Assembly: GCA_039621445.1 (NCBI GenBank)
Contig: CP154954.1
Coordinates: 37,247,703-37,311,702 of the forward strand
From: Euglena gracilis
Taxonomy: Eukaryota
Length of the DNA: 64,000 nucleotides
Reading direction: 5' to 3'
Positions 4,826 to 40,358 of this stretch are shown here, in pieces. Made by a program: the position numbers and the translations under genes. How positions within the stretch are numbered: the stretch's first letter is position 1; each line of letters begins with the position of its first letter. The notes beneath the pieces are model-generated. The model saw only the letters and a program-made list of their open reading frames with translations. It made no database searches and had not been told where the DNA came from.

Positions 4826-4827
4826 AG

Positions 4828-14039: not shown

Positions 14040-14122
14040 GGCTGGGAAGAATTTTTGGTTGGCAGGCTTTTGTGGAAAGAAACTCGCGATATTTTTGTTT
14101 TGATTCTTAATTCTAGATTATT

Positions 14123-16117: not shown

Positions 16118-16125
16118 GTTTCTCC

Positions 16126-18534: not shown

Positions 18535-18760
18535 GACCCCTCGGAAGAGGACATGGTAGCACCATCTCCGACACAAAAAAAATAGAAAAGGGCCCACACC
18601 CCTCTGGGTAAGGCCATCGAGAATCGAAGTGAAAGCGCCCAAGTGACAGGCGGGTGCAACGGCTCGCGGTGACCCGTCCCGACGGCAAAGAACAGCACGC
18701 GGACACGGGCGACACGCCCGCACGGGCGACGCGCGGGCACGACACGCGCGAAACACGTGC

Positions 18761-18900
18761 GAGCCGTGCCGAGCCGTGCCGAGCCGTGCCGAGCCGTGCC
18801 GAGCCGTGCCGAGCCGTGCCGAGCCGTGCCGAGCCGTGCCGAGCCGTGCCGAGCCGTGCCGAGCCGTGCCGAGCCGTGCCGAGCCGTGCCGAGCCGTGCC
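18761..18900 (+). repeat. (GAGCCGTGCC)14 3' tail of E1
   Basis: 14 perfect 10-mer units directly before the TSD. Confidence 0.95.
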
Positions 18901-18915
18901 TTAATTCTAGATTAA

Positions 18916-18941
18916 ACTTTCTGAGTGTCTATTTTTTTTCG
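18916..18941 (+). ncRNA. Euglenid spliced-leader exon copy (26 nt) at the 5' end of E2
   Basis: ACTTTCTGAGTGTCTATTTTTTTTCG matches the Euglena SL exon as recalled; not followed by a GT donor. Confidence 0.9.
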
Positions 18942-19094
18942 TTCGCATATCATGTCGGACAAGTGAAAGCCCCTGGTGGGGTATGTTTTGAAGCCCGAAG
19001 ACATTGTTGGACAAAACCTCAGGTGTGAATTAGTGATCACTGTCAAGTACAAGTTCAAGCAAGATTCAAGTTCAAGAAGCTCGAGCAGTCCAAC

Positions 19095-21791
19095 TTGCTG
19101 TTGCAGATGCGTCACTGGGCCAGCAAGCAGGAGGGGAAGCAACAGCACCCCTCCAGCAGCTCCCAGAGCAGCGGGTGCAAAGCCACAGGCGACTCCAGCA
19201 GCAAGGGCAGAGCCAGAGGCCGCCCCAGCAGCAGGAGTATAGCCACAGGCAGCCCCAGCAGCCAAGTTGTACTGACCATGGCACCATGTCGATCATCGAC
19301 CTTTGTCAAGACATTGTTAAGACAGGGACTTCCATGCCACATCTTTGCCTTGTTGTTGTTGCATTCCCCAGGGGAAATGAAAACACATGGGACACTGGGT
19401 CTGTCAAAGTGGGGGATGTACCCCCTCCCCAGTCACATCTTTCCCATTGCATCTTCCCCAGTGACTCACAATTGCCTGTACAGTTCAAATCTGGTTGGGA
19501 AATCCCACCGACATTTGCGACCAGAAAAATCCCAGCAGAAGTGTATGTTTGCACTGTCAGCTGGGAAATGCCAGCGACATCAACATGACCATCAGTTGAA
19601 GGGGAAATCCCAGCAGCATTTGCAGCAGGGACATTACCATCAGTATTTGCTGCCTGAAAAGCCCCACCATCTGCCAGCAGAATGCCAGCACCACCTGCTG
19701 CAGGAAAAATCCCAGCAGCAGTTGCAACAGGAACAATCCCAACATGAAGCAACAAGCCCCCAATCAAGATCCAGCCCCAGGAGGCTGAGCCAAAGGGGAG
19801 AAATAAAACCACTGGGTCCAAAGTGGGTGATGTCCCCCCCACCCAGTCACACTGTTCCCTGTGCATCCTACATTGTCTTGGCAAATGCTCTTTGCCCTCA
19901 CCATGCGCAGGAGGACACCAGCAGCTGGCACCATTTTACAAACATTGAGCCAGAACCCAAGCTGCGTTCCGTTTTTCCGGCAGAAACCCAGCCACACTTC
20001 CGCGTCGGCTCACTTTCTTCTGCCGCACACGCGCCAAAAACCTTCCAAGAGCTCCCCAGGGCTGCATGCACTGCTCCTGGCGCAAAAAAGCCAGACAAGA
20101 AGCGTCGCTCGTCTTGTCTCTTCAGCGCAACACGGAGAAAAGCTACAGCAGCAATGCACCACTGCCGGTCGGGCAGAGGCGAGGACCTGCTGACGTTGGG
20201 CGACGTGGAGGAGAACCCAGGACCCGCCCCCTTGGGAGGTCCCGTGGCAGGAACCATGGATATTGACTTGTCCACGGACCCCACACGTGCGGTGGGATTC
20301 TTGTTAGCCACAACGCCGGTTCCCCCTTCCGCTCTAGGCCCACTTGAGGACACCTCGACGCAGGACGCCCGGGACCTTCAACAACTTCTGCAGACCCTCC
20401 TGAGCCGACCACCACCGGAAGCCGCTCTCCCCATAGATGGTCCAAGAGCCACGACTCGCGGCCCTTCACAGCCTTGGGTAATTTCCGATCGAGTACCCGG
20501 ACTGACGGGTAGAGGCGGGCTCCCCAGTTGCGGTGATGTTGAGGAAAACCCGGGCCCGAGAACGGGGTGGCCAAAAAGAGGCCGAAAACACAGCCGGCCG
20601 GCTCAAAACATTGATACCGTGGCTTGCTTGGGGCCAGAGATCTCGGTGGCCATTGACGTTGATGACGCGGCCCCTGCCCCGGCGGCGTCGTCCGCTCCTT
20701 TGCAGGGGGCGATGGACACCGATGGCCCCACTTTGCCTTTCGTGCCCGGATGCCGACGGGAAGGAACACCCCTTTCTCAGCCCTGCCCTTTGCTCGAGCC
20801 GACCTGGGATGCCATTTCGCATGACCTCAGGGGGACCATCGCTCACATCCCGCGGGGTGCGGTGCAGGCGGTGGCTCAAATGTACGCAATTCTACTGAGA
20901 GACTACAACCGGCGCCCCTCGTGGGAGTCGTTGCACGCGCTGTGGTGTATGCCGAAGGCGGTGCTGGCACCCTTGGCACGCGCCGGCAGAAACCATTGGG
21001 CACAACTAGGGAAAGCCATCGGAGCCAGGGCACGCGCCTATCTCCTGCAACCAGTCGCAACCTCTTGGCAGCAGTCACAAAAGCCGGCCGCAAACCCTGT
21101 TTCCTCGGTGTCCACACGCTCCGCCGCAAGCAGAGCGGAAGAGGTCCAGACGGAACGCTTCATCCGCCGGATGGAAACGTTGGTGGCCAGAGGGGCTGTG
21201 GGGAAGGCCTGCCAGTTGCTCCTCTCCGAAGGAGTGCAGGACGCGGCTCATCCCGCCGTGCGTGAGAGATTACGCCGGATGCACCCAACAGAGGCGGAAC
21301 CCGGAAGGGGATCCACTTCGAGGTGGAAACCACTATCACGCAGCGACGATGTGGGAGACGACCGCCGTATGGTGAAACATGCAGTGCGTAGCTTCGGCCC
21401 GGAGTCTGCAGCAGGCCCCTCAGGACTTCGGCCTGAGCACCTGAAGGCCTTGCTCAGCGACGAGGCCGGGGGCTCGGCAGAGGATGTCCTGGATGAGTTG
21501 ACGGAGTTTGTCTTCGGGTGCGTGCTTGGGGGAATCCCCAATGGGGCAGCACAAGTGATGTGTGCTGCACGCCTGACCCCCCTCCGAAAAACCAAAACCG
21601 GGACAGGGGCACCCACAGACCCCGTGGGCAAGACATCCCCAGAAGAGGAGGGCACTCGGCCCATCGCAGCTAGGGAAACCCTGCGCCGCCTGGTGGCGAA
21701 AGTTCTAATGCGCCACCCGGAGGTCCGTCGGTCCTGGCCACAGCCCTACCTCAGCAAATGGGAGTGGGCGTACCTGATGCATGCGCTCTGA
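19095..21791 (+). CDS. E2 ORF N-terminal part: Q/H-rich region, two 2A peptides, start of RT
   Basis: GRGEDLLTLGDVEENPGP (core 20199-20225); GRGGLPSCGDVEENPGP (core 20532-20558); SAAGPSGLRPEHL; TRPIAARETLRRL. Confidence 0.85.
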   Translation: MLLQMRHWASKQEGKQQHPSSSSQSSGCKATGDSSSKGRARGRPSSRSIATGSPSSQVVLTMAPCRSSTFVKTLLRQGLPCHIFALLLLHSPGEMKTHGTLGLSKWGMYPLPSHIFPIASSPVTHNCLYSSNLVGKSHRHLRPEKSQQKCMFALSAGKCQRHQHDHQLKGKSQQHLQQGHYHQYLLPEKPHHLPAECQHHLLQEKSQQQLQQEQSQHEATSPQSRSSPRRLSQRGEIKPLGPKWVMSPPPSHTVPCASYIVLANALCPHHAQEDTSSWHHFTNIEPEPKLRSVFPAETQPHFRVGSLSSAAHAPKTFQELPRAACTAPGAKKPDKKRRSSCLFSATRRKATAAMHHCRSGRGEDLLTLGDVEENPGPAPLGGPVAGTMDIDLSTDPTRAVGFLLATTPVPPSALGPLEDTSTQDARDLQQLLQTLLSRPPPEAALPIDGPRATTRGPSQPWVISDRVPGLTGRGGLPSCGDVEENPGPRTGWPKRGRKHSRPAQNIDTVACLGPEISVAIDVDDAAPAPAASSAPLQGAMDTDGPTLPFVPGCRREGTPLSQPCPLLEPTWDAISHDLRGTIAHIPRGAVQAVAQMYAILLRDYNRRPSWESLHALWCMPKAVLAPLARAGRNHWAQLGKAIGARARAYLLQPVATSWQQSQKPAANPVSSVSTRSAASRAEEVQTERFIRRMETLVARGAVGKACQLLLSEGVQDAAHPAVRERLRRMHPTEAEPGRGSTSRWKPLSRSDDVGDDRRMVKHAVRSFGPESAAGPSGLRPEHLKALLSDEAGGSAEDVLDELTEFVFGCVLGGIPNGAAQVMCAARLTPLRKTKTGTGAPTDPVGKTSPEEEGTRPIAARETLRRLVAKVLMRHPEVRRSWPQPYLSKWEWAYLMHAL

Positions 21792-23713
21792 TAGGAATGG
21801 GTATCCAGCAGCTAGTGGACGGCCTGTCTCATGTTGGAAAGGCAGATTGGGGACTGCTCCAGCTGGATTTTTCAAACGCATTCAACTGCATCTCTCGAGA
21901 AAATTTGCTGGCAGAAGTCGCGGAGCGATGCCCCCCGCTGCTTCCATGGTTGGAGAGTTGTTACGCCCGCCATTCTCAGCTGTATCTCGGAAAAACATCA
22001 CTCCGAAGCAAGTCCGGTGTGCAGCAAGGGGACCCGTGTGGCCCGGCTGCCTTTGCCCTCGGCATACAGTCCCTCTTGGACAAGCTGCAAGGTATCGTGG
22101 GCTGGCAAGCCTGGTACCTGGATGATGCCCACATCATGGGCACGCCGGAACAGCTCGAAAGGGCAGTACGGCTGATCCTGAACGAGGGACCACAGATTGG
22201 TGTGGGACTCAACCTGACAAAGTGCAAACTCTGGGGGCCTGCATTTGTTGCTCGTGGAGAAGGCCTGCTTCAGGGCATCCCAGTGGAACCTTTCACACCC
22301 GGCTCTGGCATCCGTGCGCTAGGAGTGCCCGTCTGCCACCCGGCAGGACGCCCGGACTTTGCCACTGTCCTTTGGGAGGAGCGCCTCTCGGGAGTCCGGA
22401 AAGCGTGCGACCTGCTGCAATTGCTGCCGTCGCCGCACCTACAGTTCACGGTGCTCAGGCAATGCCTTGATGCATGCAAAGTAAACGACCTGCTTCGAAC
22501 CACACACCTCTCGGGAGCCAAGGCGCCATGCCATTCCTTTGCCACTCTCCTTCGGGACACAATGTCCGCAATCACCGCTCGCCCGCTGGATGATAAACAG
22601 TGGGCACAAGCCTCCCTGCCAGTCCGCCTGGGGGGGCTCGGGATCCGAGACCCAGAGGTATCCAGAGCACCGGCAAGGTGGGCGGCCATCCTTGACTTCC
22701 TCTCACGAGCGGATAGCACTCTGTGCCTACCCGAGGGTTGCCCCAAGCTCCCACGGGATTACGGAGAGACGGGCCTGGTGATCTCGGGCCTTACCAAAGG
22801 GGTGGCGCCTGTGGGTGACCTCCTAACGGACCCAAGCAAGGTGAGTTCCTTGTCTCCCTCAATGGTGAGACAAAAGTGGTGGACAGATGAGGTCCTCAAG
22901 GTCCGGGTGGACCTGCTTTTGGCTGGCCTTGTTGGAAATGACGCGGTCCGTTTCGCATGCCAGCGGAGGCCGCACGCCATGGCGTGGGCAGCGGTCAACC
23001 CCTCTGCCCCCCTGAAGACCCTCATCCCACCGGCAGAATTCAGAGCCCTGACTCAGTGGTCCTTGGGATGCCAAGTTTGCCCCACAACGACAGATGGCTC
23101 CTTGCCGGAATGTCCCCGCTGCCACCAACAAATGGATGTTGGAGGAAACCACCTTGTCTGCTGCCCCAAAAACAACACTTTGCGGCGACATGGTGCCCTC
23201 CAGACGTTCGTTTTGGACCTGGCGAGAAGGGCCGGTTTCATGGCTCGACGAGAAGAGGTGGCTGACAACCGGACAAGACCCGGAGATGTCTTCATCACGA
23301 GATTCGACGCGGACGGACCTGCAGCAGTGGATGTCACGGTCCGCCACCCGTTGCAACCAGCAAACCCGGTCTCCTCAAAGGACGCCTTAGCACGGTGGCA
23401 CGAACTACAAGAGGGAGACAAAGAACGCAAGTATGCAGCCACCTGCGAACGGCTGGGATGGACGTTCATCCCGTTTGTGGTTGATTGCTTCGGAGGGATG
23501 GGGGAGCGAGCGGCAGGATTCATATCCAAGTGCCTCCGCACTGTGTTGGCGCAGACCGATGTTCCTCAACGACGATCGTCAGAGGCCACGGTATGGCAAG
23601 CGCTGAGTCTAACGTTGGCCAGTGAATTGGCTCGCCAGCTGGCTTGGGGGGCAGTGGCGGAGCCATCAGGCGACGTTGATCTCACTACCCACACCCCATA
23701 TGCCACAGAGTAA
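21758..23713 (+). CDS. E2 RT plus RLE (continuation after a frameshift)
   Basis: LDFSNAFN, GVQQGDPCGP, WYLDDA, CPRC..NHLVCC, RRHG, RPGDV, AVDVTV, KERKY. Confidence 0.93.
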   Translation: MGVGVPDACALIGMGIQQLVDGLSHVGKADWGLLQLDFSNAFNCISRENLLAEVAERCPPLLPWLESCYARHSQLYLGKTSLRSKSGVQQGDPCGPAAFALGIQSLLDKLQGIVGWQAWYLDDAHIMGTPEQLERAVRLILNEGPQIGVGLNLTKCKLWGPAFVARGEGLLQGIPVEPFTPGSGIRALGVPVCHPAGRPDFATVLWEERLSGVRKACDLLQLLPSPHLQFTVLRQCLDACKVNDLLRTTHLSGAKAPCHSFATLLRDTMSAITARPLDDKQWAQASLPVRLGGLGIRDPEVSRAPARWAAILDFLSRADSTLCLPEGCPKLPRDYGETGLVISGLTKGVAPVGDLLTDPSKVSSLSPSMVRQKWWTDEVLKVRVDLLLAGLVGNDAVRFACQRRPHAMAWAAVNPSAPLKTLIPPAEFRALTQWSLGCQVCPTTTDGSLPECPRCHQQMDVGGNHLVCCPKNNTLRRHGALQTFVLDLARRAGFMARREEVADNRTRPGDVFITRFDADGPAAVDVTVRHPLQPANPVSSKDALARWHELQEGDKERKYAATCERLGWTFIPFVVDCFGGMGERAAGFISKCLRTVLAQTDVPQRRSSEATVWQALSLTLASELARQLAWGAVAEPSGDVDLTTHTPYATE

Positions 23714-24486
23714 AAAAAAGGGGGGGTCAGGGCGAACACCATGTAAACACCTGCGGCCGCTGAGGCCAAGCCAGGCAGCCTACACCGGCCACCAAGGGCC
23801 GGTATTGTTGGCTTTGTCCCGTTGACACAACATGGTAAGCACACCTGAGAGAAAGCCGAAAGGCCAGACGAACCCGAAACCTCCATTGAGCACACCGGGG
23901 AACAGCCTGCCCCCAACAAGGCCACCCCACCCCGCCTGCTCCATGCCACCTCACCCCTCGGGCCCTGGCCCCCACATGGCCGATTCTGGGTTCACCTGAC
24001 CACCTTACCCTGAGACTGTCGCTTCTGTACATAGCCTTACCCCCTGAACACGTCAAATCCAGTAGGCAGTGCCACTGGTCGGTGGACTTGGTTCGCCCCA
24101 CCACTGTAGTAGCATTAAATTTTAACACCAACCGTACGCATAACCAACCACAAGACTAATTAAACCAAAAAAACAAGCAAATCACACCTTGCAACGAATG
24201 GACCAAGTCTACAAAGACGTCCAAACCCTTACCGCACTGAAAACAGAGCCTTCCCTGCGCCAACTCCCCAAAACCTGAACTTGTCGCTGCCACAACCTCA
24301 ACACTCAACAGTCCCCATGGCCGTTCCATTGAACCTTTCCTGCCGCTGTACACTTTCCTCTCTCACTCGCTATCCCCCCTCCGTACTGTGCCCCTCACCG
24401 CCCTTCTACTTCACCCTCGACTCTCCCCGCTCCCACCGACGCCTGTGGATGCTGGTGGATTCCCAAAAAAAATTTAAATTGGTGGC

Positions 24487-24513
24487 ACTTTCTGAGTGTC
24501 TATTTTTTTTTCG
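24487..24513 (+). ncRNA. SL exon copy (T9 variant) at the 5' end of E3
   Basis: ACTTTCTGAGTGTCTATTTTTTTTTCG followed by the shared leader. Confidence 0.9.
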
Positions 24514-26280
24514 CATATCACATGTCGGACAAGTGAAAGCCCCACCAGGGGTATAGTTTGAAGCTCCGAGTTCGACAAACTGTGGCATTTCATGAGAAGG
24601 CGTTGGAGCCGAGACAGCAGAGAGGAGGATGAAGGAGAAGGTTTCCTTGAAGCAGATGAGTATGAGAACTATCTGAAACGCAGGTGGGGTTCTTCGTATG
24701 TGATGTGAATTTTTTGGCGTTTTTTGAATTTTTTTGTAAACAAAATGGTTGCTTTTAGGAGCATGAATAATCATTTTTTCTCATTGTCAGCATGAAAAAA
24801 TTCCCCGGTGGAGTTGGAGATTCTCCAAGTCCTCTCCATCAGAAAGTGCACATCCTGGAGCTCCGAAAGGATTTTATATGCGAATATATTTTATATGCCC
24901 AGAACGACCTCGCCAGCTGCGTTGGGAACAGAAGGAAGCTGACAGGAAAAGAAGAGCTGAGTACTGGGGAAGACAGACCAGAAGTCGCAGCAGAAGCCCT
25001 GACAGAAAGAGATTCAATGTTTAACGTGGTGGAAACCCTCCAGACAGGAGGAGTGCAGCTGAGTTCCCTCCAGACTGGAGGTGGCCTGACCAAGAGAGAC
25101 AGGTCAGAGATTCTTCTGCACAGAGAAGACCCCTGCAGCAGCAGCAGGAGTATGAGTAGCAGTTGGGAGACTACCCAGCACAGAGAAGACCCCTGCAGCA
25201 ACAGCAGGAGTTTGAGCAGCTGGAGAGAGACTACCCAGCACAGAGAAGAGCCCTGCAGCAGCAGGAGTATGGGCAGGAGAGAGAGTACCCTGCACAGAGA
25301 AGGTCAGACACTGTACATCTGCCATCTGGGGTTATTCCATGGACTACATTTTATCAACTGCCTCAGCCTTCTCCCAGTTTGTACTCCTCTGCTGCAGCAT
25401 CTGCCACAGGTCATCAAGTACCCCATCCCCAGTCTGTGATGTATACACCAGCAGCTGCAGCCACAGCAGGCCTTTCAGGACAAGCTGCAGTTTTTCCTGG
25501 CCAGGGCCAGACAATGTGTGGCCAGAACCAGATGTATATGACTCCCCAGCCTGTTTACTATGTGGACCCCTCTGGGGCAATGTCTGCAGACCTACCCTGG
25601 TGGAAGTACCAGCTGTTGATGGGCCATTCGGTGGGGCACAATGCCATCCCCCCAGGAACTGTCAACACCTCAGCAGCAGTGTCCTCTGCCCAGCCAGCCT
25701 CTGGAGGGCCTGGGGTCAGCATCCCCCCCCCTCCTTACCAAGAAGGAGGAGGAGCCAAAGCCATTCAGGGAGAGAAAAGGAGGACTGACAGCTCTGGAGC
25801 CTCAGCCTCCACATCAACAGCCTCCAGGGCCAAATCCTCTTCTGTTTCCTCATCAGACAGTGATGACAAGGAGTTGTTGGACTTGCTGAAAGAAAGGCGA
25901 CGTAAAAGGAAAGAACAGTAGCAAAAAAATGAAGAAGCGGACCACACACAGGAGAAGAAACATTCCCATTGTGTGGCTCAGTGCGTGCTGAAGACCCCCC
26001 CAAGATTTTCTGCAGCAAAAGTCCAGGAGAGGGGAAGATATACCCCCCCAACTGCAGTTGGAGAAAAACTCGGCCATGAGTGATTACCCCCCTTGCCCTG
26101 GAATTCGGGCCTGAGCAAGGACAAAGGGAATCCCAAACCCCAGTAATGGAAAAAGGTACCCCCACAAGGGAGAAAAAACCGGCGGTGCAAGAAAAAAGAC
26201 GGCCAGCACCAGGAGGCCCATACAAAATTTTCTCTGTCTTTGACACAGAGATTTGGAAAGTGGAAGGCCAGTGGTTAAAC
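24487..26280 (+). mobile_element. E3 5' part: SL-headed retroelement interrupted by the LTR element; Q-rich ORF fragments (25163-25921, 26080-26280)
   Basis: Removing 26281-40358 joins ...KVEGQWLN in frame to PTGVMFDEKC...; about 60-bp repeats encode DYPAQRRPLQQQQE. Confidence 0.8.
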
Positions 26281-26700
26281 AGTGTACGTCCCCTGACTCT
26301 ATTCCCACTGCCTGTCGGCCTACTTACACCCTCCCGTGGGAACAGAACCAGGAGAGTAACAAAAAAGAAAATCTTTCACTTAACTATTAGTTTTTATTGA
26401 CTTTGGGCTTATGCAGAGCACAAGGCAAACCAGGTGTGATTTTGGAACTTCAGTTCCAGTAGTGTTCTCCTATCGGAGTTCGAACCTTCAAATCTTTGAT
26501 TTGCCCTTTTGGGCTGATGAAACACAAAGCAAAACAATAATACCACCTGTGAAAAGAGAAGGCAGATCCGAGATAGGATAGGCTGTTCCTAATTCTGCAA
26601 TTTGTATTGCAGAACATGGAATAGTACTATCTGGCATGACATTGTGCATTTTGCAGTTTGCTGCTATGCACAGTGCCATGTTCATGCTGCCTGGTACACA
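26281..26700 (-). repeat. 3' LTR
   Basis: Near-identical to 39933-40353; minus-strand termini TGTGTAC...GTACACT; abuts the PPT. Confidence 0.92.
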
Positions 26701-29275: not shown

Positions 29276-32200
29276 TCAGACAGAATATGGTGAGTGGGCA
29301 GAAGACAAGGTGATCTCATCCTTGGAAGAATACAAGCTCCAAACGAGCTGTCTGCTGATTTCTCTGATCAGTGTGAAGGACAGGCCTTGCCAAATATCTG
29401 CTTCTGCGGCCCGCCGTTGCCACCCTTCCCGCTGCCCCAGAAGGGCTTTGAGGAGGGTGGCCATCAAGGAGCGCGCTTCTTGTCCCATGCCCCCGTAGCA
29501 ATCCATGACGAATGGCATCAACCGCCAGCCCAGTCGTCGGCATGTTGCATCATATTTGGCATGCTTTTCAGCTTCCTGTCGTGTTTGCCATTGTGACAGG
29601 CTCTCTGCACTTCGCAGCGGATGACTTTGCGCAAGGGTGTGGCGGACTGTCACATCCACTGCAACGGGTCCATCACTGTCCAAGCGAGGAATGAAGATAT
29701 CCCCAGGGCGGGAACGGTCATCGGCTCGTTGTTCTTTACGGGCTGTAAATCCTGCCTTCTGTGTTGTGGTTGTCAGAAAATCTTGGACAGCCCCGTGCCG
29801 CCGGGTAATGAAGTTTGATTTGCAGCAAACGAGGTGATGTCCGAGAAAATCTGATTGTCCAAAGCATTTGGGACAGAGGTTGGGATCGGATTCCGTTGGT
29901 GTGAGAGTCATTCCGAGGGACCAACGAAGTGTGCAGCGGAATTCAGCCGTGGGTAACAGGGTGCGGAGTCCTTGAGATGGTGTCAAAGCGGCCCATGCCA
30001 TAGCGTGTGGTTGGCATTGGCTTGCAAAGCGTACAGCATCAGGTCCATTCAATGTGTCCCGAAGTGTTTTCTGGCGGGCAAGCATGCTTTGCTGATTCCA
30101 CCAACGTTGTGAATTGTGTGGAGACTGTGCCTGCGGGATCAAGTTTTTGTCACTGGCCCATTGTGGCAGTGGGGCCATTTGACCGAGTTCATTGAGGGCT
30201 GTCCGTAAACAATCGTCAACGTCTTTGGGAAGGATGTCCATGGCAGCGGGCAGGCCCAAGACAGAGGGAGCTCTTCGACAGAAGTCCACCACTTGAGACA
30301 ATCTCGCCGGCTGACGTTGAAATAGTGGATCGGAGATTCCCAGTCCACCGCATCTGATGGCCAGGGAAACTTGCAACCATTCTTCTGGGGTGCAAGGGGA
30401 GCCGACCATGCTGCTGAATGTTTCCCGAATAATTCCCGACAATGTCTTGCATGCCGCTGTTGCAGAGGCGATTTTGCAGGCGCGCAAGAGGTCATTCACT
30501 TTGCAAGCGGATAAACAAAAACGAAGCAAGGTGAATTGCACATGCGATTGAGGTAGGTGCTGAAGTACTGTGCAGGAACGTCGGATGTCTTCAATGCGCT
30601 TATTCCATACTTCTTCACAGAAGCGGTCATCTTGGGGGTGGTGGACAGGGACCCCCAAAACTTTCAAACCTGAACCGGCAACAAAGGCGGTCAGTGGTAT
30701 TTGATGCAAGGGGCTGTCCTGTGGCGTTCCCGGAGGAATGCAAGGGACACCTTCTGTTGATGTGAACGCTGGTCCCCACAAGCGACATTTTGCGGGGTTC
30801 ACGGCCAACCCAAGCGCTGCTGCCTCGCGAATCAGAAATACAAGGGCATTGTGTAGTTGGGCTGATCCCAGCAGATGGGCGTCATCCAAATACCATCCCT
30901 GCCATTCGACCAAGGGGGAGAGGCCCTCACACAGGTCTTGTACGCCCCAGGCGAAAGCTGCTGGTCCACTTGGGTCGCCTTGCTGAGCCCCCCTCTGGGA
31001 AGGCAGACAATGGTTTCCACAATACAGCTTGCTGTGTTGGGCGTAGCACGAATCCAGCCAAGGGCACACTTCTGGGCATCGTCTGCGGATGGATTGCAGG
31101 ATTTTTTCTCGTGACAAAGAGTTGAAGGCATTCCTGAAATCCACTTGAAGCAGCCCCCATCGATTGTCTCTGTCCGAGTGCAGAGTGTCCACCATTTGTT
31201 GGATTCCCATTGCGATCAGTGGACAAGCGTTCGGCACACCAACGCCACATTGTGGAGGACTCAGTTCTTTCAAAGCGTTTACCACTGTGGGATGACGCAT
31301 GAGACATTTGCCAACCAATCGGCGGAGGGTTTCACCTGCTGCGATTGGGCGAGTGTCTTCATCACACACCGTGTGTTCCACAAGGTTTCCAAAAGCATCC
31401 TCTTCCATTGCTCTTTGTTTGTTCTGTTTTCGCAGAGGTGTCAGCCTGGCGGAGGAAAGAATTGGGGCCATGCTGGGGTGAACACCGTTTGTAATTGCCC
31501 GACAGATGAAGGTATCCAGCACCTCGAGGAGGTCTTCTCCACAAGCCCCTGGGTAGTCTCCAACCATGGCCTTGAGGTGGTCAGGTCTCAGGCCAGAAGG
31601 ACCCGGCGCGGATTCCTTTGGGAACCCGAAGATGGCTTTGCGCAGATTTTGTAATCGCTCTTTTGTGCTTTCCGGGTCTGAAGGAAAGGTAATCGTTTGG
31701 GAAGAATCGGACACTGGGATGTGCGGTGGAGGCTCTGGTGGGTGAAGGTCACGTAGCCTTTGGATCACTTTTGGGTCACTGCTGTTTTGGACCCCCTCAG
31801 AGGTGAGCTCTCGGCAGGCTTTTGAAATAGCCCCGTGGCCAACAAGGCTTTCAATGCGGGAGAGGAACCGTTCTTCAGTTGCCTTGGCTGCCAGTGCTGT
31901 TTTTTGCCTTGTCTGTCTGCCTTGTTGCTTTTGTGGGAGACTGGAGTCCAGCCATGAATCAAACACAGGGCGGGTGAGATACAGGCGAGCGCGTTCTGCA
32001 ATTTTTCTCCCCACCATCGCCCAGTTTGAACGCCCGCCACGCTGCAAAGGACAAAGCACCGCTTTGGGGAAGGCCCACAAGGCGTGCAGGGTTTCCCAGC
32101 CAGGGTCCCTGTTGAAATGCTTCATCAGTTGCAGGTAGGTTTGATTGACATTCAGGAGGGCTCCACGTGGCAGGTATACAAGGGTGCCTCGATCGTCAAA

Positions 32201-33820
32201 AGAAATTTCCTCAAAAGAGGGATGAAGGGATGTTGGGCATGGAGCAGAGAATGGCGTAACCCCAGCAAGGTGATTTTGGCCAATGGGGCTTGGTGGGGGT
32301 CTAGCTGGGGCTGGTGACGATGCTGCTGCGGTTGTTGCCACAGAGGATGAAGAGCTGGCACCCAAAGGGGGGTTGGAGAAGTTGGAGAAGTTCAGGAAAG
32401 GCGTCGCTTGATTTGCTTGCATCCACATGGCTCCAACATCTGACGGGGGGAAGGATCCTGGTCCTTGTGTGCCAATTGGGTTCGCCATGATGACCGTGGA
32501 GCACATTGAAGGGAGGCCCTGTTGGCCAAAGAACAACGGACCCGGCAGATTTGGGAACCAAGATCCCCTTTCCAAGGGTGGCGCTGCGGGTGGTGTTGGT
32601 GCGGTCGGGGTGATGGAAATTTGTGATGCTGGCGCCATGTCAACGTCCTCAATCGACACCAATGGGGGCTCTGCGGGTGGTGGTGCGGCTGGAGGGATGG
32701 AGATTTGTGATGCTGGCGCCATGTCAATATCCTCACCCGAAACAAATGGTGGGTCCGTAGCTGGCCCGGGGTTGCTTTCAATGTCCCCGCAGGTGAGTAA
32801 AGACCGACCCCGGCCTGCCCCCCCCGATGCTGCCAGGGTGGGCTGTGGGCTGTCTTTTGCCGGCGTGAAAGGCACCAGCACTTTTCTTTGTTTGGCTGAC
32901 ATTGGGTTGTTTTTTCCGAACGGCTGAGTGGGAGCCTGGGGATTGTCAAGTGCATTGCGCTGAGGTGTCCCGTTTGCTGGCCAGCTGAACCGGGCAGAAC
33001 TGGCTGGATGGGGGGCCACTGTTGCAGGCCACAATGTGGAGGAGCATGGTTCGCCCGTGTTGAAACCCCGCGCTATTTTGGCTGGAAATCTGCTGAGCCC
33101 TTGGGCAAATTTGGACAGCGTCGTGGCCGAAGCCGTGGGCCCTGGGGCCACATCTGTGAAAGAGTTTTCTGTGCCTGTTTTGGCTTGAAAAGTGTTGAGC
33201 CCTAGGGCGGCATTTGACAGCATCATGGCTGAAGTCTTGGGCCCTGGGGCCACATTTGTGAAAAACTTTTCAGTGCCAGATTTGGCTTGAAATGTGTTGA
33301 GCCCTGGGGCAGCATTGGACAGCATCTTGGCTGAAACCTTGGGCCCTGGGGCCGCATCTGTGAAAAACTTTTCTGTGCCACATTTGGTTGGAAATGTGTT
33401 GATCCCTGTGGCAAAAATTGACAGCATCATGTCAAAGGCCTTGGGCCCTGGGGCGTCATTTGTGAAAAACTTTTCTGTGCCACATTTGTTTGGAAATGTG
33501 TTGATCCCTGTGGCAAAATTTGACAGCATCATGGCAAAAGTCTGGGGCCCTGGGGCCACATTTGTGAAGAACTTTTCTGTGCCAGTTTTGGCTTGAAATG
33601 TGTTGAGCCCTGGGGCAAAATTGGACAGCATCATGGCTGAAGTCTCTGGCCCTGGGGCCAACTCTGTGAAATGTTTATAAGGCCCTGGGGCCACAGTGCG
33701 GGTTGGTGTGAACGCTATGTTACAGCACAGGTGGTAAAGCAAAGTATAGTGAAACAGGGATAATACTTCCAGCCAGCTGGTGTAGCAGAGGATGATGTTG
33801 TGCTGCTGTAGCATCCTCAA
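29276..33820 (-). CDS. E4 uninterrupted 1514-aa polyprotein: 40-aa repeats, 2A, RT, RLE (first ATG about 33814)
   Basis: GRGRSLLTCGDIESNPGP (core 32762-32788); SAPGPSGLRPDHL; VDFRNAFN; QQGDPSGP; WYLDDA; CPKC..HHLVCC; RRHG; RPGDI; AVDVTV; EKHAKY. Confidence 0.95.
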   Translation of the reverse strand: MRMLQQHNIILCYTSWLEVLSLFHYTLLYHLCCNIAFTPTRTVAPGPYKHFTELAPGPETSAMMLSNFAPGLNTFQAKTGTEKFFTNVAPGPQTFAMMLSNFATGINTFPNKCGTEKFFTNDAPGPKAFDMMLSIFATGINTFPTKCGTEKFFTDAAPGPKVSAKMLSNAAPGLNTFQAKSGTEKFFTNVAPGPKTSAMMLSNAALGLNTFQAKTGTENSFTDVAPGPTASATTLSKFAQGLSRFPAKIARGFNTGEPCSSTLWPATVAPHPASSARFSWPANGTPQRNALDNPQAPTQPFGKNNPMSAKQRKVLVPFTPAKDSPQPTLAASGGAGRGRSLLTCGDIESNPGPATDPPFVSGEDIDMAPASQISIPPAAPPPAEPPLVSIEDVDMAPASQISITPTAPTPPAAPPLERGSWFPNLPGPLFFGQQGLPSMCSTVIMANPIGTQGPGSFPPSDVGAMWMQANQATPFLNFSNFSNPPLGASSSSSVATTAAASSPAPARPPPSPIGQNHLAGVTPFSAPCPTSLHPSFEEISFDDRGTLVYLPRGALLNVNQTYLQLMKHFNRDPGWETLHALWAFPKAVLCPLQRGGRSNWAMVGRKIAERARLYLTRPVFDSWLDSSLPQKQQGRQTRQKTALAAKATEERFLSRIESLVGHGAISKACRELTSEGVQNSSDPKVIQRLRDLHPPEPPPHIPVSDSSQTITFPSDPESTKERLQNLRKAIFGFPKESAPGPSGLRPDHLKAMVGDYPGACGEDLLEVLDTFICRAITNGVHPSMAPILSSARLTPLRKQNKQRAMEEDAFGNLVEHTVCDEDTRPIAAGETLRRLVGKCLMRHPTVVNALKELSPPQCGVGVPNACPLIAMGIQQMVDTLHSDRDNRWGLLQVDFRNAFNSLSREKILQSIRRRCPEVCPWLDSCYAQHSKLYCGNHCLPSQRGAQQGDPSGPAAFAWGVQDLCEGLSPLVEWQGWYLDDAHLLGSAQLHNALVFLIREAAALGLAVNPAKCRLWGPAFTSTEGVPCIPPGTPQDSPLHQIPLTAFVAGSGLKVLGVPVHHPQDDRFCEEVWNKRIEDIRRSCTVLQHLPQSHVQFTLLRFCLSACKVNDLLRACKIASATAACKTLSGIIRETFSSMVGSPCTPEEWLQVSLAIRCGGLGISDPLFQRQPARLSQVVDFCRRAPSVLGLPAAMDILPKDVDDCLRTALNELGQMAPLPQWASDKNLIPQAQSPHNSQRWWNQQSMLARQKTLRDTLNGPDAVRFASQCQPHAMAWAALTPSQGLRTLLPTAEFRCTLRWSLGMTLTPTESDPNLCPKCFGQSDFLGHHLVCCKSNFITRRHGAVQDFLTTTTQKAGFTARKEQRADDRSRPGDIFIPRLDSDGPVAVDVTVRHTLAQSHPLRSAESLSQWQTRQEAEKHAKYDATCRRLGWRLMPFVMDCYGGMGQEARSLMATLLKALLGQREGWQRRAAEADIWQGLSFTLIREISRQLVWSLYSSKDEITLSSAHSPYSV
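33090..33695 (-). repeat. About 120-bp tandem repeats (about 5) encoding APGPxxxAMMLSNxAxGxNTFxxKxGTEKFFTN units
   Basis: Visible in both DNA and translation. Confidence 0.85.
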
Positions 33821-34011
33821 GGAGATGAACCACTCCAGTGTCTGTACTGTACTGTACTGTAACTCGGGCTTGCACTTCTCTGTCGGGCTTTGCTGCTGTC
33901 AAGACCAACAAACTTCAATATTTCAATGACTTGAGTTGTAGGTTGGAACTTCAGGTAGTTCAAAGCTTGAACCCCACCAGGGGCTTTCAGTTGTCCCACA
34001 TGATATGCGAA

Positions 34012-34036
34012 CGAAAAAAAATAGACACTCAGAAAG
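34012..34036 (-). ncRNA. SL exon copy (25 of 26 nt) forming the 5' end of E4
   Basis: Reverse complement CTTTCTGAGTGTCTATTTTTTTTCG directly against the TSD. Confidence 0.9.
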
Positions 34037-36553
34037 ATATTTGGCTTTTGGCCAAATTGGCTGGGCCTAATTCAAAATTTCACGATCTCTTCAAATAAGA
34101 GTACCGTGCAGAGTTACAGCGATCTGATAGCATCGCTGAACGGCTCGTCCAACGAGCTTTCGAATGAGGGGTAACATGGCCTATCGGCCAGCTACGGACG
34201 CTGAGATACGTCTTTGATCTTTTGACTGTGTGAGTGAGCTTTTGCTATGAGCGTCCATAATTTATTCTACAAAGACAACTTTTGGTTTCTATCTCATAGG
34301 CACTACTACATACAGTCAAAACCTCATGGCACGAGGTGCCAGAAATTTTGAAGCTTTTGTGGTGGTTTTGAGGCTATGCCAAAGTGACACTTATGCAAAT
34401 CTGCATAAAACTAGCCTATTTGGCTTGTTTTGGCCAATTCAGCCACTTTCAGCCATGTAATATGGCTTTTTGTGCAATTTTTTGAGGTCCTATGGACTTT
34501 TCACTTTATAATATGGATTTGTGGACCTTTGGTCCTTTTGGTCCTTGCAATTTGTGCAAATTGGTCCTATGGACCCATGGACCACGTGGGTAATGGCCCA
34601 TAGGCCTTGCGCATCATAGGATGTATTGGTCACATAGACCTAAGGCTAAGTGGTCAAGTCCACAAAAATGCATGTTTGAATGAATTTTCTTCATTTTTTT
34701 TGGGGGGGGGGCAACTATGTTGCAGATTTTCTCAAGGAATTCAGCCCATTTCCCTATCGGGATTCACTTCACTTCTGCAATAAGAAAAAGGCCATTTTGT
34801 TCACAAAATAGCTGTTCTTCACAAAGCTGTGCAAGTTCATGGGAAAAATGCAGTATTTGCAATGTATCCCAAAAACTTATCACACACCTTGTGTTTTTGG
34901 CAAATAACTTTGAAGTTGGCGCAATTGTGCGCTTGAATGATCAAAACACCTTTGGTGTTCGCCAATTTGACCAACAAGTTCGTGGTCAAAGAAGGAGGGG
35001 ATGGCTACTTTTGTTGCTTAAGTAAACCAAATCTGCATTTTGAGCATGTGGTTTGCAAATCAACAACAAAAGTGCCATTGTGAAATATGTACACAAACAT
35101 CTTTGGGACTTATTCCCGAAAGAATATGGTTGGGTTGGGCAGATACCCATTTGTAAGATATACGCAGTTATGCGAGATTTGCGCTATGTGGGGGGCGGGG
35201 GGGGGCGCATCTTGTGGGGAGGCTGTTTGCGGACTGCGCAATATGCGTGGTGGCGAGGTGTGCGCTATGCGCGGTGTGCAAAACAATATGCACGCGATGA
35301 GCGCTATGCGCGTGGGGAGCGCAATATGTGCGGGGTGTGAGCGACATTGGGGGCGCCTTATAGCGCGCGGGGGGGGGGGGGCATTGTGCGCAAGATTTGC
35401 GCTATGCGCGAGGGGGGGGGGCGCCATAGGCGCATCGTCTGTGCTATACGCACTTTGCGCAATATGCGCAGGGAGGCGCCAAAGGAACTGGGTCGGGGTG
35501 GGTGCCATTGGCGCTCGGGGGCGCCATAGGCGCGGGGCTGGTGGTAAGTTTGGTTTCGGTTATTTCCTTTTGTGTTTGGTTGTCGGTTGTGTGGAAATTT
35601 CTCCTAGAGTGCACACCATGGGGGGAAGGTGCGGAGTAGTTGTCCTTGTCGCGCATGTCGGTCTGCGGGGGTGAGTGTGTAAAAAAAATTGAGCATGCGA
35701 ATTTTGGAGCTGCTGGGGGTGTACAGGATTGTCTGAATCGACAAACCTGGTGGAAAACGAAAAGTTGAAAGCAGCTGGGCGACTACTCGACACCGTTTAA
35801 ACTTCAGGCCTTAGGGCTTTCGTCTTGGAACCCAGTGCAACGATCGGGGGTTAAGCTACTTGTTACCCCTACCGCATGTGGAACGTTTGTGAATATGCGG
35901 TGGGTAGGGGGGGGCACTTTCTCTTTACCCCGGGTTGAAAACGGTGTTGGTGTTGTTGAAAACGGTGTTGCTGTCATCGAAAACGGTATGTAAAAGTGAT
36001 GATTAGTGGAAGTTTGAGGGGGGGGGAAGAATTTTGCGGTGTTGTGTGCATTCTTGGAGGGGGAATCCACTCAACCACATGGACATTCATGGGCTATCCC
36101 ATGATGCACCACAGCTGGAAACACAAAAGTGTCTATATGTCAAAGGTTGGTGAAAACTTTGAGCGGGGTCACCAAAAAATCCTTGCACACTGACCAGAAA
36201 GGATACTGGGCAGGGGATGACTAGGGTCGCGACTCCTGTCACCTCCTTTCTAGTACCATCTGTAGTCCGTATCCTTGGATTTTTGGTTTCTTCGCTCAAA
36301 AACCGAACCGGTGGCCATATCAGCCATTGACTTTCTTGACGCATATACGTCTCTGAATTTATGAGCGCTAAAGCAGGGATGATCCCTTTGGTTACATGGG
36401 GGGTATCATCCCCCTCCCTGCCCGAAGCCGGGTGATAATCCTCGATAGAGGTTGCTCTTTGACCTACTTATGCCTTTTGGCTGAAGTACGATCTTTTGAA
36501 CTGCGAGTCATATCGCGATGGCTATGGCTTGGGTGGGGAGGAGTCGCATAGCG

Positions 36554-39662: not shown

Positions 39663-39905
39663 AGGAACAAACTCAGAAGGATGTGGCAGCGTATACTGCC
39701 CAGAGCCTCCTGAAGCTTGTACCTGTGCTTGGAAGTTGGCTCCAAACAGCTCGTGGATGCTTTGTAGCCTATAGGCTCAGCAACACTCACTGTTTGAAGT
39801 CACCTGTTAAGATGAGGGGGAGAAGGGGGGAGAAGGGGCGTAGGAAAGAAACCAAATCTGCTACCAAGTGTACGCCTTGGTAGTCTTTCTCTTTGTGAAG
39901 TATGT

Positions 39906-40353: not shown

Positions 40354-40358
40354 TAAAC

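What the first reader, a model, noticed from the sequence alone, without database searches (positions are those of the whole stretch)
18916..34048. Three diverged RLE retrotransposons begin with the euglenid spliced-leader exon
Seen: E2 (18916), E3 (24487) and E4 (34036, minus) all start with the SL exon. Their upstream flanks are unrelated and no GT donor follows, so these are not SL RNA genes. In E4 a 12-bp duplication (ATATTTGGCTTT, 28778-28789 and 34037-34048) abuts the SL, placing the SL inside the inserted cDNA. Known: trypanosomatid CRE/SLACS/CZAR and nematode NeSL insert into SL genes. Inference: here the SL is the element's own 5' end, either trans-spliced onto the RNA before reverse transcription or permanently captured as an mRNA mimic. 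I do not know of this being described for euglenid retroelements.
Basis: partly seen in the sequence, partly recalled or inferred. Interest (0 to 1): 0.92.

Follow-up and report, generated by a model that had tools for sequence, protein, structure and literature searches.

The report
Euglena retrotransposons that begin with spliced leader
Two full-length jumping genes (and one non-coding relative) in this Euglena-type genome carry the host's mRNA "spliced leader" tag as the first bases of their DNA copies, which shows that the RNA they copy themselves from wore the cell's own mRNA cap sequence.

Summary
The Euglena gracilis spliced-leader (SL) exon occurs three times in the window (0 expected), each time followed by the same ~44-nt leader instead of the GT intron found in real SL RNA genes.

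E2 and E4 are R2-like non-LTR retrotransposons: reverse transcriptase, CCHC knuckle, restriction-like endonuclease, and 2A "StopGo" polyproteins. E3 is not. It shares only the SL and leader, and has no RT and no protein homologues.

E4 has an intact 1512-codon ORF and a perfect 12-bp target-site duplication that encloses the SL. The SL was therefore on the reverse-transcribed RNA. E2 has only a possible 7-bp duplication.

The first 70 nt are 89-100% identical between E2 and E4. The rest of the 5'UTR is at background identity (about 50%) and the RT-RLE DNA is 59% identical.

The leader resembles no SL RNA intron in 9 metagenomic euglenid SL gene copies. Contigs of public DNA runs show the E4 family is very abundant, with a sharp 3' boundary and unrelated flanks.

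Still open: whether the SL is re-added by trans-splicing in each cycle (my preference, about 0.45) or is inherited as a promoter/mRNA-mimic module (about 0.35). I found no published description for euglenids.

The parts
34011..34036 (-). E4: genome-encoded SL exon (25 of 26 nt, first A missing)
   Evidence: exact match to the published SL
33952..34010 (-). E4: conserved leader with a 4-codon uORF (ATGTGGGACAACTGA) and the hairpin GCCCC-TGGT-GGGGT
29276..33814 (-). E4: intact polyprotein ORF, 1512 codons from the first ATG. 2A motif at 32785-32762, RVT_1 at about 31282-30776, CCHC + RLE at about 29875-29564.
28790..29275 (-). E4: 3'UTR. Family homology ends at 28802. 28801-28790 (GGTATTATTGGT) is a copy-specific tail.
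   Evidence: (107 contigs in X1 and 71 in X7 with unrelated loose ends at 28802)
34037..34048 (.). E4 target-site duplication, 5' copy (ATATTTGGCTTT on the + strand)
28778..28789 (.). E4 target-site duplication, 3' copy
18916..18941 (+). E2: genome-encoded SL exon, 26 of 26 nt
18942..19000 (+). E2: conserved leader (uORF ATGTCGGACAAGTGA, hairpin)
19107..23713 (+). E2: polyprotein in two overlapping frames (to 21791, and 21674-23713), i.e. one frameshift. 2A motifs at 20202-20225 and 20535-20558. RT, CCHC and RLE lie in the second frame.
23714..24158 (+). E2: 3' region. A conserved 3' motif (...CCCCACCACTGT) ends near 24107. A possible 7-bp duplication ATTAAAC lies at 18911-18917 and 24159-24165. 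The true end is unresolved.
24487..24512 (+). E3: genome-encoded SL exon, T9 variant
24513..24570 (+). E3: leader. It lacks 3 nt at the SL junction, has a CA insertion, and its hairpin loop is inverted (ACCA).
24571..26280 (+). E3 body: no RT or RLE and no homologues. It belongs to a moderately repeated family. The 193-nt segment 24704-24896 is absent from the main DNA contig form.
14121..18899 (+). E1: related RT-RLE element without SL or leader. It carries a 2A motif at 14954-14977 and a (CGAGCCGTGC)n tail, and is flanked by the 15-bp repeat CTTAATTCTAGATTA (14106-14120 and 18900-18914). The right-hand repeat ends 1 nt before E2's SL.

Best explanation
E2 and E4 are full-length copies of an abundant group of R2-like non-LTR retrotransposons. 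They encode RT, a CCHC knuckle and a PD-(D/E)xK restriction-like endonuclease, and the polyprotein is cut by 2A peptides.

Their transposition intermediate is an mRNA-like RNA. Its 5' end is the host spliced leader joined to a conserved leader of about 44 nt. Target-primed reverse transcription copies this RNA to its capped end, so each full-length daughter begins in DNA with the SL exon inside its target-site duplication.

My preferred mechanism is that the SL is put on by ordinary SL trans-splicing of a longer primary transcript in each cycle. The acceptor would lie exactly at the start of the leader in the source copies. One possible source (inference only) is an SL-headed copy whose ...TTTTTTTTCG has become ...TTTTTTTTAG, which is a pyrimidine tract plus AG at the right place.

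E3 is a non-autonomous relative that carries the same 5' module.

Shown here: the SL lies inside the E4 insertion, the RT-RLE identity, the leader conservation, and the family's abundance. Inferred: that trans-splicing is the source of the SL, and what the leader does.
For: - The SL is exact and occurs 3 times against 0 expected.
- The E4 12-bp duplication abuts the SL and has a chance rate of 26/200000.
- The 5' ends are ragged by 0-2 nt (ACTTTC, ACTTTC, CTTTC in the window; TTTC and CACTTTC in one X1 contig). This fits reverse transcription stopping at or near a capped RNA end.
- The leader is not an SL RNA intron.
- Pfam finds RVT_1. A profile of 24 relatives matches solved R2 proteins at E=3.7e-31 across RT, CCHC, RHN and PD...D.
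- The CCHC and RLE residues are invariant in all 24 sequences.
- More than 70% of E. gracilis mRNAs are trans-spliced (abstract of PMC10679874), so trans-splicing is the default route to an SL 5' end.
- A contig of run X15 (kind guessed as RNA) carries SL plus leader and then continues into a further family variant.
- All 3 SLs in the window carry the leader, and none heads an ordinary gene copy.
Against: - No source copy with the leader preceded by a pyrimidine tract and AG was seen. The leader occurs only 3 times in the window, always behind an SL.
- An SL-headed copy has no AG at the SL/leader junction, so it cannot regenerate the same RNA by canonical trans-splicing.
- Re-splicing at the AG inside the SL (position 9-10) would leave a 16-nt relic, as seen in dinoflagellates. 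None is seen at the 3 window junctions or in the one DNA contig junction.
- E2 and E4 are old lineages (59% DNA identity in RT-RLE) yet have an identical SL/leader junction. An inherited module explains this more simply.
- Only one clean duplication (E4) encloses an SL. E2's is 7 bp, with a rough chance of 2-3% by my own estimate. E3 has none.
Confidence: 0.45

Rival explanations
1. Inherited 5' module. The SL plus leader (about 70 nt) was captured once, by trans-splicing or from an SL gene. It is now copied vertically as part of the element. It acts as an internal promoter or start-site determinant (an SL RNA gene mimic), and gives the transcript an mRNA-like 5' end without trans-splicing.
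For: - Identity is 100% in the SL and 89% in leader nt 27-70 between E2 and E4. It is 47-56% beyond nt 70 (background 47%) and 59% in RT-RLE DNA. The 5' module is therefore the most constrained part of the element.
- The same module sits on a non-coding relative, E3.
- No relic SLs were seen.
- The lineage has to regenerate exactly one SL plus leader in every generation.
- There is a precedent of kind in the sister group. [quoted passage not shown]
Against:
- The upstream (T)ACAC context shared by the 9 SL gene copies is absent from E2 and E4.
- The SL is perfect in E2 and E4 while the leader has substitutions. This also fits fresh addition of the SL.
- E3's T9 SL matches a natural SL gene variant (L003 and L008).
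Confidence: 0.35
2. Target-derived SL. The elements are SL-gene-specific, like CRE, SLACS, CZAR and NeSL. The SL plus leader would then be the upstream part of an interrupted SL RNA gene or SL gene variant.
For: - Known RLE clades target spliced-leader exons (passage in PMC4640811).
- A covariance model of SL RNA genes places a GGTAT about 40 nt after the SL in E2 and E3.
Against: - The E4 duplication encloses the SL, and its target has no SL sequence.
- The flanks are unrelated and lack the SL-gene upstream context.
- The leader has 0 nhmmer hits in 8 SL RNA loci.
- There are no SL remnants at 3' ends.
- The covariance-model score (about 20-22 bits, E 0.006-0.018) comes from the exon.
- Caveat: the SL RNA genes compared come from metagenomes. 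I could not see this organism's own SL RNA gene.
Confidence: 0.05
3. 5' capture by template switching. The RT jumped from the end of the element RNA onto SL RNA or any SL-bearing mRNA, as in U6-L1 chimeras (recalled from memory). The SL would then be an accidental add-on.
For: - One X1 contig shows: element 3' end, 19 nt, a partial SL, CA, a full SL, then the leader. This looks like serial jumps (table 5c).
- End-to-end template jumping is a known property of the R2 RT (recalled from memory, not read here).
Against: - The SL/leader junction is the same in E2 and E4 and differs by only 3 nt in E3. Random jumps would give varied junctions on truncated elements.
- Homology decays gradually after the leader rather than ending abruptly.
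Confidence: 0.07
4. Chance or assembly artefact.
For: None found.
Against: - 0 of 100 shuffles gave any SL match.
- Contigs of two public runs (kind guessed as DNA) hold the SL contiguous with the E4 leader. These runs may include the data behind the assembly.
Confidence: 0.02

Closest known systems
SL-gene-specific RLE non-LTR retrotransposons (CRE1/2, SLACS, CZAR of trypanosomatids; NeSL-1 of nematodes)
   Same: They are RLE-type non-LTR elements with an RT followed by a C-terminal CCHC and endonuclease, and they are physically associated with the spliced-leader sequence. Some occur in the same phylum, Euglenozoa. Sources: passage in PMC4640811; family details recalled from memory.
   Different: Those elements insert into SL exons of SL RNA gene arrays, so SL halves flank them as target DNA. 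Here the whole SL is the first part of the inserted unit, inside the duplication, at non-SL targets. Pfam found no N-terminal zinc-finger or protease domain. Phylogenetic placement was not tested.
R2 elements (solved structures 9nl3, 9dou, 8gh6)
   Same: The RT, linker, CCHC and PD-(D/E)xK RLE align to R2 at E=3.7e-31.
   Different: These elements are not in rDNA. Pfam detects no N-terminal ZF/Myb domain. They carry 2A peptides and long repetitive N-terminal regions. A single-sequence search does not reach R2.
Dinoflagellate retrogenes with relict DinoSL
   Same: A DNA-encoded spliced leader at the 5' end of a retroposed copy serves as the mark of an SL-capped RNA intermediate. Sources: passage in PMC3942190; abstracts of PMC6050394 and PMC12014239 in the listing.
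   Different: Those are host genes, and they often carry truncated relic SLs behind the full SL. Here the carrier is the retrotransposon itself, always with one fixed leader. No relic was seen at the 3 window junctions or the one contig junction.
Pr77 hallmark of trypanosomatid L1Tc/ingi, NARTc/RIME, SIDER and DIRE
   Same: A conserved 5' sequence of about 70-77 nt is shared by otherwise diverged autonomous and non-autonomous retroposons of a euglenozoan (abstract of PMC8190864).
   Different: Pr77 is not the SL, and its transcripts are reported as unspliced. Those elements are APE-type (recalled from memory). Sequence similarity to Pr77 was not tested because no Pr77 sequence was at hand.
SL-containing retrotransposons suspected in Schistosoma mansoni
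   Same: The authors found the SL inside 6 transposable or retrotransposable elements. They suggested these might be trans-spliced, retro-transcribed elements (passage in PMC5832876).
   Different: That report is tentative, and the authors allow for chimeric assembly. It gives no target-site duplication, no conserved leader and no family analysis, and it concerns a different phylum.

Membership tests
RLE-type (R2-group-like) non-LTR retrotransposon | Reverse transcriptase domain | tested here: met
   RVT_1 in E4 (E=3.6e-10), in E2's second frame (1.8e-12) and in E1 (6.5e-13). Not met for E3.
RLE-type (R2-group-like) non-LTR retrotransposon | C-terminal CCHC knuckle and PD-(D/E)xK restriction-like endonuclease | tested here: met
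   C1342, C1345, H1355, C1359, R1367, H1368, E1389, P1398, D1415 and K1445 are invariant in 24 sequences. The profile aligns through the CCHC/RHN/PD/D region of solved R2 proteins at E=3.7e-31.
RLE-type (R2-group-like) non-LTR retrotransposon | Target-site duplication and 5' truncation typical of target-primed reverse transcription | tested here: met
   12-bp repeat at E4 and 15-bp repeat at E1. Summed contig depth falls from the 3' end to the 5' end of E4 (table 2; this depth is a poor copy-number measure).
CRE / NeSL clades (SL-targeting) | Site-specific insertion into the SL exon of SL RNA genes | tested here: not met
   The E4 and E1 targets contain no SL. No SL halves flank any element.
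CRE / NeSL clades (SL-targeting) | RT phylogeny places the element inside the clade | not tested
   No CRE, SLACS, CZAR or NeSL reference sequence could be obtained with the tools. Among the 120 listed homologues the named ones are only from Ephydatia, Symbiodinium, Cydia and Copromyxa.
CRE / NeSL clades (SL-targeting) | N-terminal zinc fingers (CRE) or Ulp1-type protease (NeSL); these features are recalled from memory | tested here: inconclusive
   Pfam found only RVT_1 in E4, E2 and E1. The N-terminal parts are repetitive and unassigned.
SL RNA gene or variant | SL exon followed by a GT donor, Sm site and terminal hairpin, with a conserved upstream context | tested here: not met
   9 of 9 metagenomic SL copies have CG|GTAT and AATTT(T/C)TG(G/A), and the three window copies do not. 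The covariance-model match rests on the exon. The leader has 0 nhmmer hits in the SL loci.
SL-tagged retrocopy (dinoflagellate type) | DNA-encoded SL at the 5' end of a retroposed unit | tested here: met
   E4: the SL lies inside the duplication.
SL-tagged retrocopy (dinoflagellate type) | Truncated relic SLs behind the full SL | tested here: not met
   Searches with the two SL halves at up to 2 mismatches find only the three full SLs, plus one chance site.
Pr77-like 5' hallmark | Conserved 5' sequence shared by autonomous and non-autonomous elements | tested here: met
   E2, E4 (RT) and E3 (no RT) share SL plus leader.
Pr77-like 5' hallmark | Internal promoter activity | not testable with these tools
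   Needs a reporter assay or TSS mapping.

The most novel reading that the evidence does not exclude
The SL plus leader is a heritable, self-sufficient 5' module. Every full-length copy would carry a miniature SL-RNA-gene-like start site that makes Pol II begin at SL position 1. The element would thus make ready-made 'SL-capped' mRNA without trans-splicing. It would lend the same module to non-autonomous partners such as E3. This would be a euglenid counterpart of trypanosomatid Pr77, built from the host's own spliced leader.
Probability: 0.35. Interest if true: 0.88.

Novelty: new variant of a known kind. Interest (0 to 1): 0.72.

Why it matters
Non-LTR retrotransposons must rebuild their own 5' end in every generation. 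How they do so in organisms that trans-splice most mRNAs is known only for kinetoplastids, through Pr77 or insertion into SL genes.

A very abundant euglenid family whose DNA copies start with the host SL gives a direct handle on several questions:
- It marks full-length copies and dates insertions.
- It allows a test of whether an SL can be inherited and act as a start-site or translation signal.
- It may explain part of the repeat load of the very large Euglena genome.
- It provides an SL tag for finding retrocopies in euglenids, as DinoSL does in dinoflagellates.

Tried and rejected
- **Whole-genome search:** none is held for this window. No genome-wide census of SL plus leader, flanks or TSDs was possible.
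- **Rfam, gathering thresholds:** 0 matches in the window.
- **Leader folds:** no more stable than shuffles, z = -0.75, -0.86 and +0.11. Only the 5-bp hairpin recurs.
- **Leader 17-mer scans:** 24 loci in viral contigs and 56 in genome contigs. 0 have an SL-like sequence upstream, so these are chance hits.
- **Weak leader-like hit at 39005-39026(-):** E=0.3 and inside an unrelated ORF. Chance.
- **Paralogous empty site for E4:** none in the window. No joint across E4 appears among the 15 joints shown by read laying; 108 more are not shown.
- **RNA runs:** no RNA holder listed. X15 and X18 are only guessed to be RNA. X18 gave no cover of the E3 5' end and almost none of the E4 5' end.
- **Read laying tables are truncated:** 1913 loose ends are not shown. 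I therefore could not read the loose ends at the SL 5' boundary or at the SL/leader junction. Their absence from the listing means nothing.
- **TSD search for E3:** only a chance-level 7-mer.
- **E3 protein content:** Pfam gives only a sub-threshold SR-25 hit (E=0.0066; 16.5 bits against a cut-off of 40). There are no homologues of similar length. Longer or shorter relatives were not searched.
- **Single-sequence PDB search of E4:** hit only a 2A-tagged construct.
- **ESM Atlas:** only unnamed RVT_1 clusters.
- **Cluster look-up of 10 homologues:** gave no taxon for the nearest ones.
- **Keller et al. 1992 (SL RNA / 5S repeat):** not held. I did not see this species' own SL RNA intron.
- **Supplements of papers:** not consulted.
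- **Idea that E1 targeted E2's SL:** set aside. The motif CTTAATTCTAG recurs at a third element boundary, so a preferred AT-rich target explains the adjacency.
Full report
**1. Observation**

The 24-nt SL core occurs three times in the window: 18918-18941(+), 24489-24512(+) and 34035-34012(-). No match appeared in any of 100 dinucleotide-preserving shuffles. With the bases in front, E2 and E3 start ACTTTCTGAG... at 18916 and 24487. E4 starts CTTTCTGAG... at 34036 on the minus strand. This is the published E. gracilis SL, ACTTTCTGAGTGTCTATTTTTTTTCG (passages in PMC6242988 and PMC5654406). E3 has nine T instead of eight.

All three SLs are followed by a shared leader. Self-BLAST gives 86% identity for 18916-18998 against 24487-24569, and 92% for 18917-18992 against 34036-33959 (alignment A1). 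Upstream of the SL the three loci are unrelated.

**2. These are not SL RNA genes**

A scan of metagenome contigs for the SL gave 8 loci holding 9 SL copies. These look like real euglenid SL RNA genes:
- Every copy continues CG|GTAT.
- Each has an Sm-like AATTT(T/C)TG(G/A) and a terminal hairpin.
- Each is preceded by (T)ACAC or TTACA. Two copies sit 782 nt apart in one locus.

The window copies continue TTCGCATATCATG... (E2, E4) or CATATCACATG... (E3).

An nhmmer profile of the three leaders finds only those three sites in the window (E 1e-16 to 1e-18; next best E=0.3). It finds nothing in the 8 SL RNA loci. A covariance model built from 8 of the SL RNA gene copies hits the three window sites at only 19.8-21.8 bits (E 0.006-0.018), and that score comes from the exon. 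Rfam gives nothing. Searches with each half of the SL find no further SL pieces, so no SL remnant lies at any element's 3' end and no relic SL lies behind the full ones.

One caveat applies. The SL RNA genes used for comparison come from metagenomes. I could not see this organism's own SL RNA gene, because no genome is held and Keller et al. 1992 is not held.

**3. What the three things are**

*E4 (34036 to 28790, minus strand).* It has a 222-nt 5'UTR and an uninterrupted ORF from the ATG at 33814 to the stop at 29276. Pfam finds RVT_1. An alignment with 23 relatives shows an invariant CCHC (C1342, C1345, H1355, C1359), then RH, E1389, P1398 (D1400 nearly invariant), D1415 and K1445. The profile of that alignment matches solved R2 retrotransposon proteins (9nl3_A at E=3.7e-31, 9dou_A at 6.2e-31). 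The match runs from the RT through the CCHC, RHN and PD...D endonuclease region.

*E2 (from 18916).* It has the same organisation, but in two overlapping frames (19029-21791 and 21674-23713), which means one frameshift.

*E3.* It is different. Neither tblastn with the E4 or E1 proteins nor tblastx of 24400-28800 against the window finds any similarity beyond the SL and leader, apart from an unrelated repeat at 26275-26717. Pfam gives only a sub-threshold hit. Its longest ORF (253 aa) has no homologue of similar length.

So 'three RLE retrotransposons' is really two, plus a non-coding or decayed sequence that carries the same 5' module.

*Other copies.* Four more RT-RLE copies in the window have neither SL nor leader: E1 (14121-18899), E6 (about 40355-44100), E5 (about 49187-50970, internally deleted) and E7 (from about 51001, truncated inside the RT). 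In E1 and E6 the distance from the 5' end to the 2A motif is shorter (about 830 and 720 nt) than in E2 and E4 (about 1290 and 1270 nt). This fits 5' truncation but does not prove it.

**4. The SL lies inside the inserted unit**

In element orientation, the 12 nt directly upstream of E4's SL (AAAGCCAAATAT, 34048-34037) recur at 28789-28778. A 12-mer recurred in a 200-nt region 5.2 kb away in 26 of 200000 random trials on this window.

Contigs of two public runs (X1 and X7, kind guessed as DNA) place the family's 3' boundary at 28802. At that point 107 and 71 contigs run on into unrelated, AT-rich sequence, with a consensus agreement of only 0.33-0.34 (table 7). The 12 nt between that boundary and the duplication (GGTATTATTGGT) are a copy-specific tail. 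E5 and one X1 contig have other tails.

E2 has only a 7-bp candidate duplication, ATTAAAC, at 18911-18917 and 24159-24165. It lies 51 nt after a 3' motif (...CCCCACCACTGT) that E2 shares with an E2-like 3' fragment at 48283-48344. I estimate its chance at a few per cent, so it is suggestive only. E3 has none.

The 5' ends are ragged by 0-2 nt: AC-, AC- and C-TTTCTG in the window, and none or CAC- in the X1 contig. This is what reverse transcription to a capped end would give.

**5. Abundance and other evidence from public runs**

All four runs are kept as contigs, so depth is not a copy number. Summed contig depth over E4 is 10^4 to 5x10^5 in X1, while single diverged contigs sit at about 40-120. 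It falls from the 3' end (515,000) towards the 5' part (24,000-76,000). That pattern is typical of 5'-truncated LINE families.

One X1 contig (depth 145) reads, in element orientation: 3' end, 19 nt, a partial SL (19 nt), CA, a full SL, then the leader (table 5c). This is a head-to-tail junction.

A contig of X15 (guessed RNA) aligns from the SL through the leader to 33971. It then continues for more than 255 nt as a further variant, ATATTTTGAAGTTCC..., which is alignable with E2 and E3 at that point. Two other X15 contigs leave the SL after a few bases, as ordinary SL-bearing mRNAs would.

The E3 body is covered at about 3,000-7,500 in X1. The dominant DNA form lacks 24704-24896.

**6. The leader**

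Identity by segment:

| Segment | E2/E4 | E2/E3 | E3/E4 |
|---|---|---|---|
| SL | 100% | 92% | 92% |
| nt 27-70 | 89% | 79% | 70% |

Beyond nt 70, identity falls to 47-61%, against 47% for unrelated 90-mers. The RT-RLE coding DNA of E2 and E4 is 59% identical, and the proteins are 46% identical. The first 70 nt are therefore the most conserved part of these elements.

The leader contains:
- A four-codon uORF, ATG TCG GAC AAG TGA. In E4 it is ATG TGG GAC AAC TGA, with the same length.
- A 5-bp hairpin, GCCCC-NNNN-GGGGT. In E3 its loop is the reverse complement (ACCA for TGGT).

As a whole, the region folds no better than shuffles.

**7. Mechanism**

*Shown.* The RNA that was reverse-transcribed into E4 carried the SL at its 5' end, joined to the leader.

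*Inferred.* I weigh two ways of getting there.

(a) Trans-splicing in each cycle.
- This is the default in an organism where more than 70% of mRNAs receive the SL (abstract of PMC10679874).
- It explains the perfect SLs, and E3's T9 SL, which exists as a natural SL gene variant (L003, L008).
- Its weakness is continuity. An SL-headed copy has no AG at the SL/leader junction.
- The AG inside the SL would leave a 16-nt relic, which I did not see at 3 window junctions and one contig junction.
- A way out, which is inference only, is a C-to-A change in the penultimate SL base. That turns T8-CG into T8-AG, a canonical acceptor at exactly the right place. Any full-length copy would then be one mutation away from being a source.

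(b) An inherited module.
- SL plus leader would act as an internal start-site determinant and an mRNA-like 5' end.
- This explains the extreme conservation, the identical junction in old lineages, and the presence of the module on a non-coding partner.
- It has a precedent of kind in trypanosomatid Pr77 (abstract of PMC8190864).
- Nothing here tests promoter activity.

I put (a) at about 0.45 and (b) at about 0.35. The remainder goes to template-switch capture, target-derived SL and artefact.

**8. Comparison with what is known**

The proteins work like R2-group RLE elements and meet the RT and RLE criteria. They fail the defining feature of CRE, SLACS, CZAR and NeSL, which is insertion into SL exons (passage in PMC4640811). 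The E4 and E1 targets are ordinary AT-rich DNA. An RT phylogeny against those clades could not be built because no reference sequence was obtainable. The nearest database relatives (up to 52% identity) are unnamed environmental or transcriptome proteins. Named but distant ones come from Ephydatia, Symbiodinium, Cydia and Copromyxa.

The DNA-encoded SL tag is the principle known from dinoflagellate retrogenes (passage in PMC3942190; abstracts listed). A tentative remark on Schistosoma says that retrotransposons 'might bear the SL' (passage in PMC5832876).

For euglenids I found nothing. The searches were:
- Euglena + spliced leader + retrotransposon: 18 papers.
- Euglena + non-LTR + reverse transcriptase + trans-splicing: 7 papers.
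- NeSL / SLACS / CZAR / restriction-like endonuclease / Euglen-: 8 papers.
- Euglena + retrogene + spliced leader: 2 papers.

None of these describes it, judged from titles, abstract starts and, for a few papers, the passages I read. These searches cover open-access PMC and bioRxiv only. Supplements were not seen.

**9. Verdict**

This is a real feature with a sound core interpretation. It is a new variant of a known kind: an RLE non-LTR retrotransposon with an unusual 5' end that is host SL plus a fixed leader. One of the three 'elements' was mislabelled. The key mechanistic question is open but directly testable.

Noticed in passing
14954-14977(+), 20202-20225(+), 20535-20558(+), 32785-32762(-), 41075-41098(+), 49474-49497(+): Six 2A 'StopGo' motifs (D[VI]ExNPGP) lie in five of the RT-RLE elements, upstream of the RT. 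E4's version (GRGRSLLTCGDIESNPGP) is close enough to a 2A tag that the only single-sequence PDB hit is a 2A-tagged construct. 13 of the 120 listed database homologues carry 1-4 such motifs. 2A in non-LTR elements is published for APE-type elements and for trypanosome L1Tc/Ingi (abstract of PMC3708506 in the listing). I did not check whether RLE-type carriers are covered by the recent 2A surveys.
   Followed up: partly
14106-14120, 18900-18914, 48365-48375: CTTAATTCTAG occurs 3 times against 0.31 expected, each time at an element boundary. Two copies are the 15-bp direct repeat around E1, and the right-hand one ends 1 nt before E2's SL. The third lies between an E2-like 3' fragment (48283-48344) and the truncated 5' end of E5. 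It may be a preferred RLE target, and it would explain the head-to-tail neighbourhoods E1>E2 and fragment>E5.
   Followed up: partly
26281-28789 and 39933-40354: A very high-copy repeat has a summed contig depth of 2-5x10^5 in X1. A 422-bp piece of it is 98.8% identical at the two sites. E4 is inserted into it. Its nature is unknown and it contains no RT.
   Followed up: no
24704-24896: This 193-nt segment of E3 is skipped in the main DNA contig form of the E3 family in both X1 and X7. One contig of X15 covers it on the opposite strand as part of a longer record. It is probably a secondary insertion.
   Followed up: no
18981-19106 (E2); about 33970-33816 (E4): A consensus-like donor (GGG|GTATGT in E2, GGG|GTATAG in E3) lies right after the leader hairpin. 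In E2 a pyrimidine-rich ...TTGCTGTTGCAG sits immediately before the start ATG at 19107. In E4 ...CTCCTTGAG ends 1 nt before the ATG. This suggests a possible 5'UTR intron retained in the DNA copies. Seen by eye only.
   Followed up: no
24539-24550 vs 18969-18980 and 33985-33974: The 12-nt hairpin CCCC-TGGT-GGGG of E2 and E4 is present in E3 as its exact reverse complement, CCCC-ACCA-GGGG. The stem is kept and the loop is inverted.
   Followed up: no
18760-18899: E1 ends in about 14 tandem copies of CGAGCCGTGC rather than poly(A). E4 ends in a 12-nt unique tail. E5 ends in A11. The 3' tails differ between families.
   Followed up: no
43875-47704: Large tandem duplications (units of about 870 bp, 95-97% identical) include the 3' end and 3'UTR of E6.
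   Followed up: no
33073-33671(-) in E4; 14123-14718 in E1: The N-terminal coding regions hold internal tandem repeats: 102-bp units in E4 encoding repeated APGP...MMLSNFA blocks, and 298-bp units in E1. DNA contigs show length variants of the E4 array (table 5).
   Followed up: no
36681-39776(-): A 1031-aa open frame with no Pfam family. Not examined further.
   Followed up: no
29370-33482, run X18 (organism B): Contigs of a run labelled as another organism cover parts of the E4 ORF with 4-9 differences per 180-609 nt (table 8). Near-identical E4 copies therefore exist under a second organism label.
   Followed up: no
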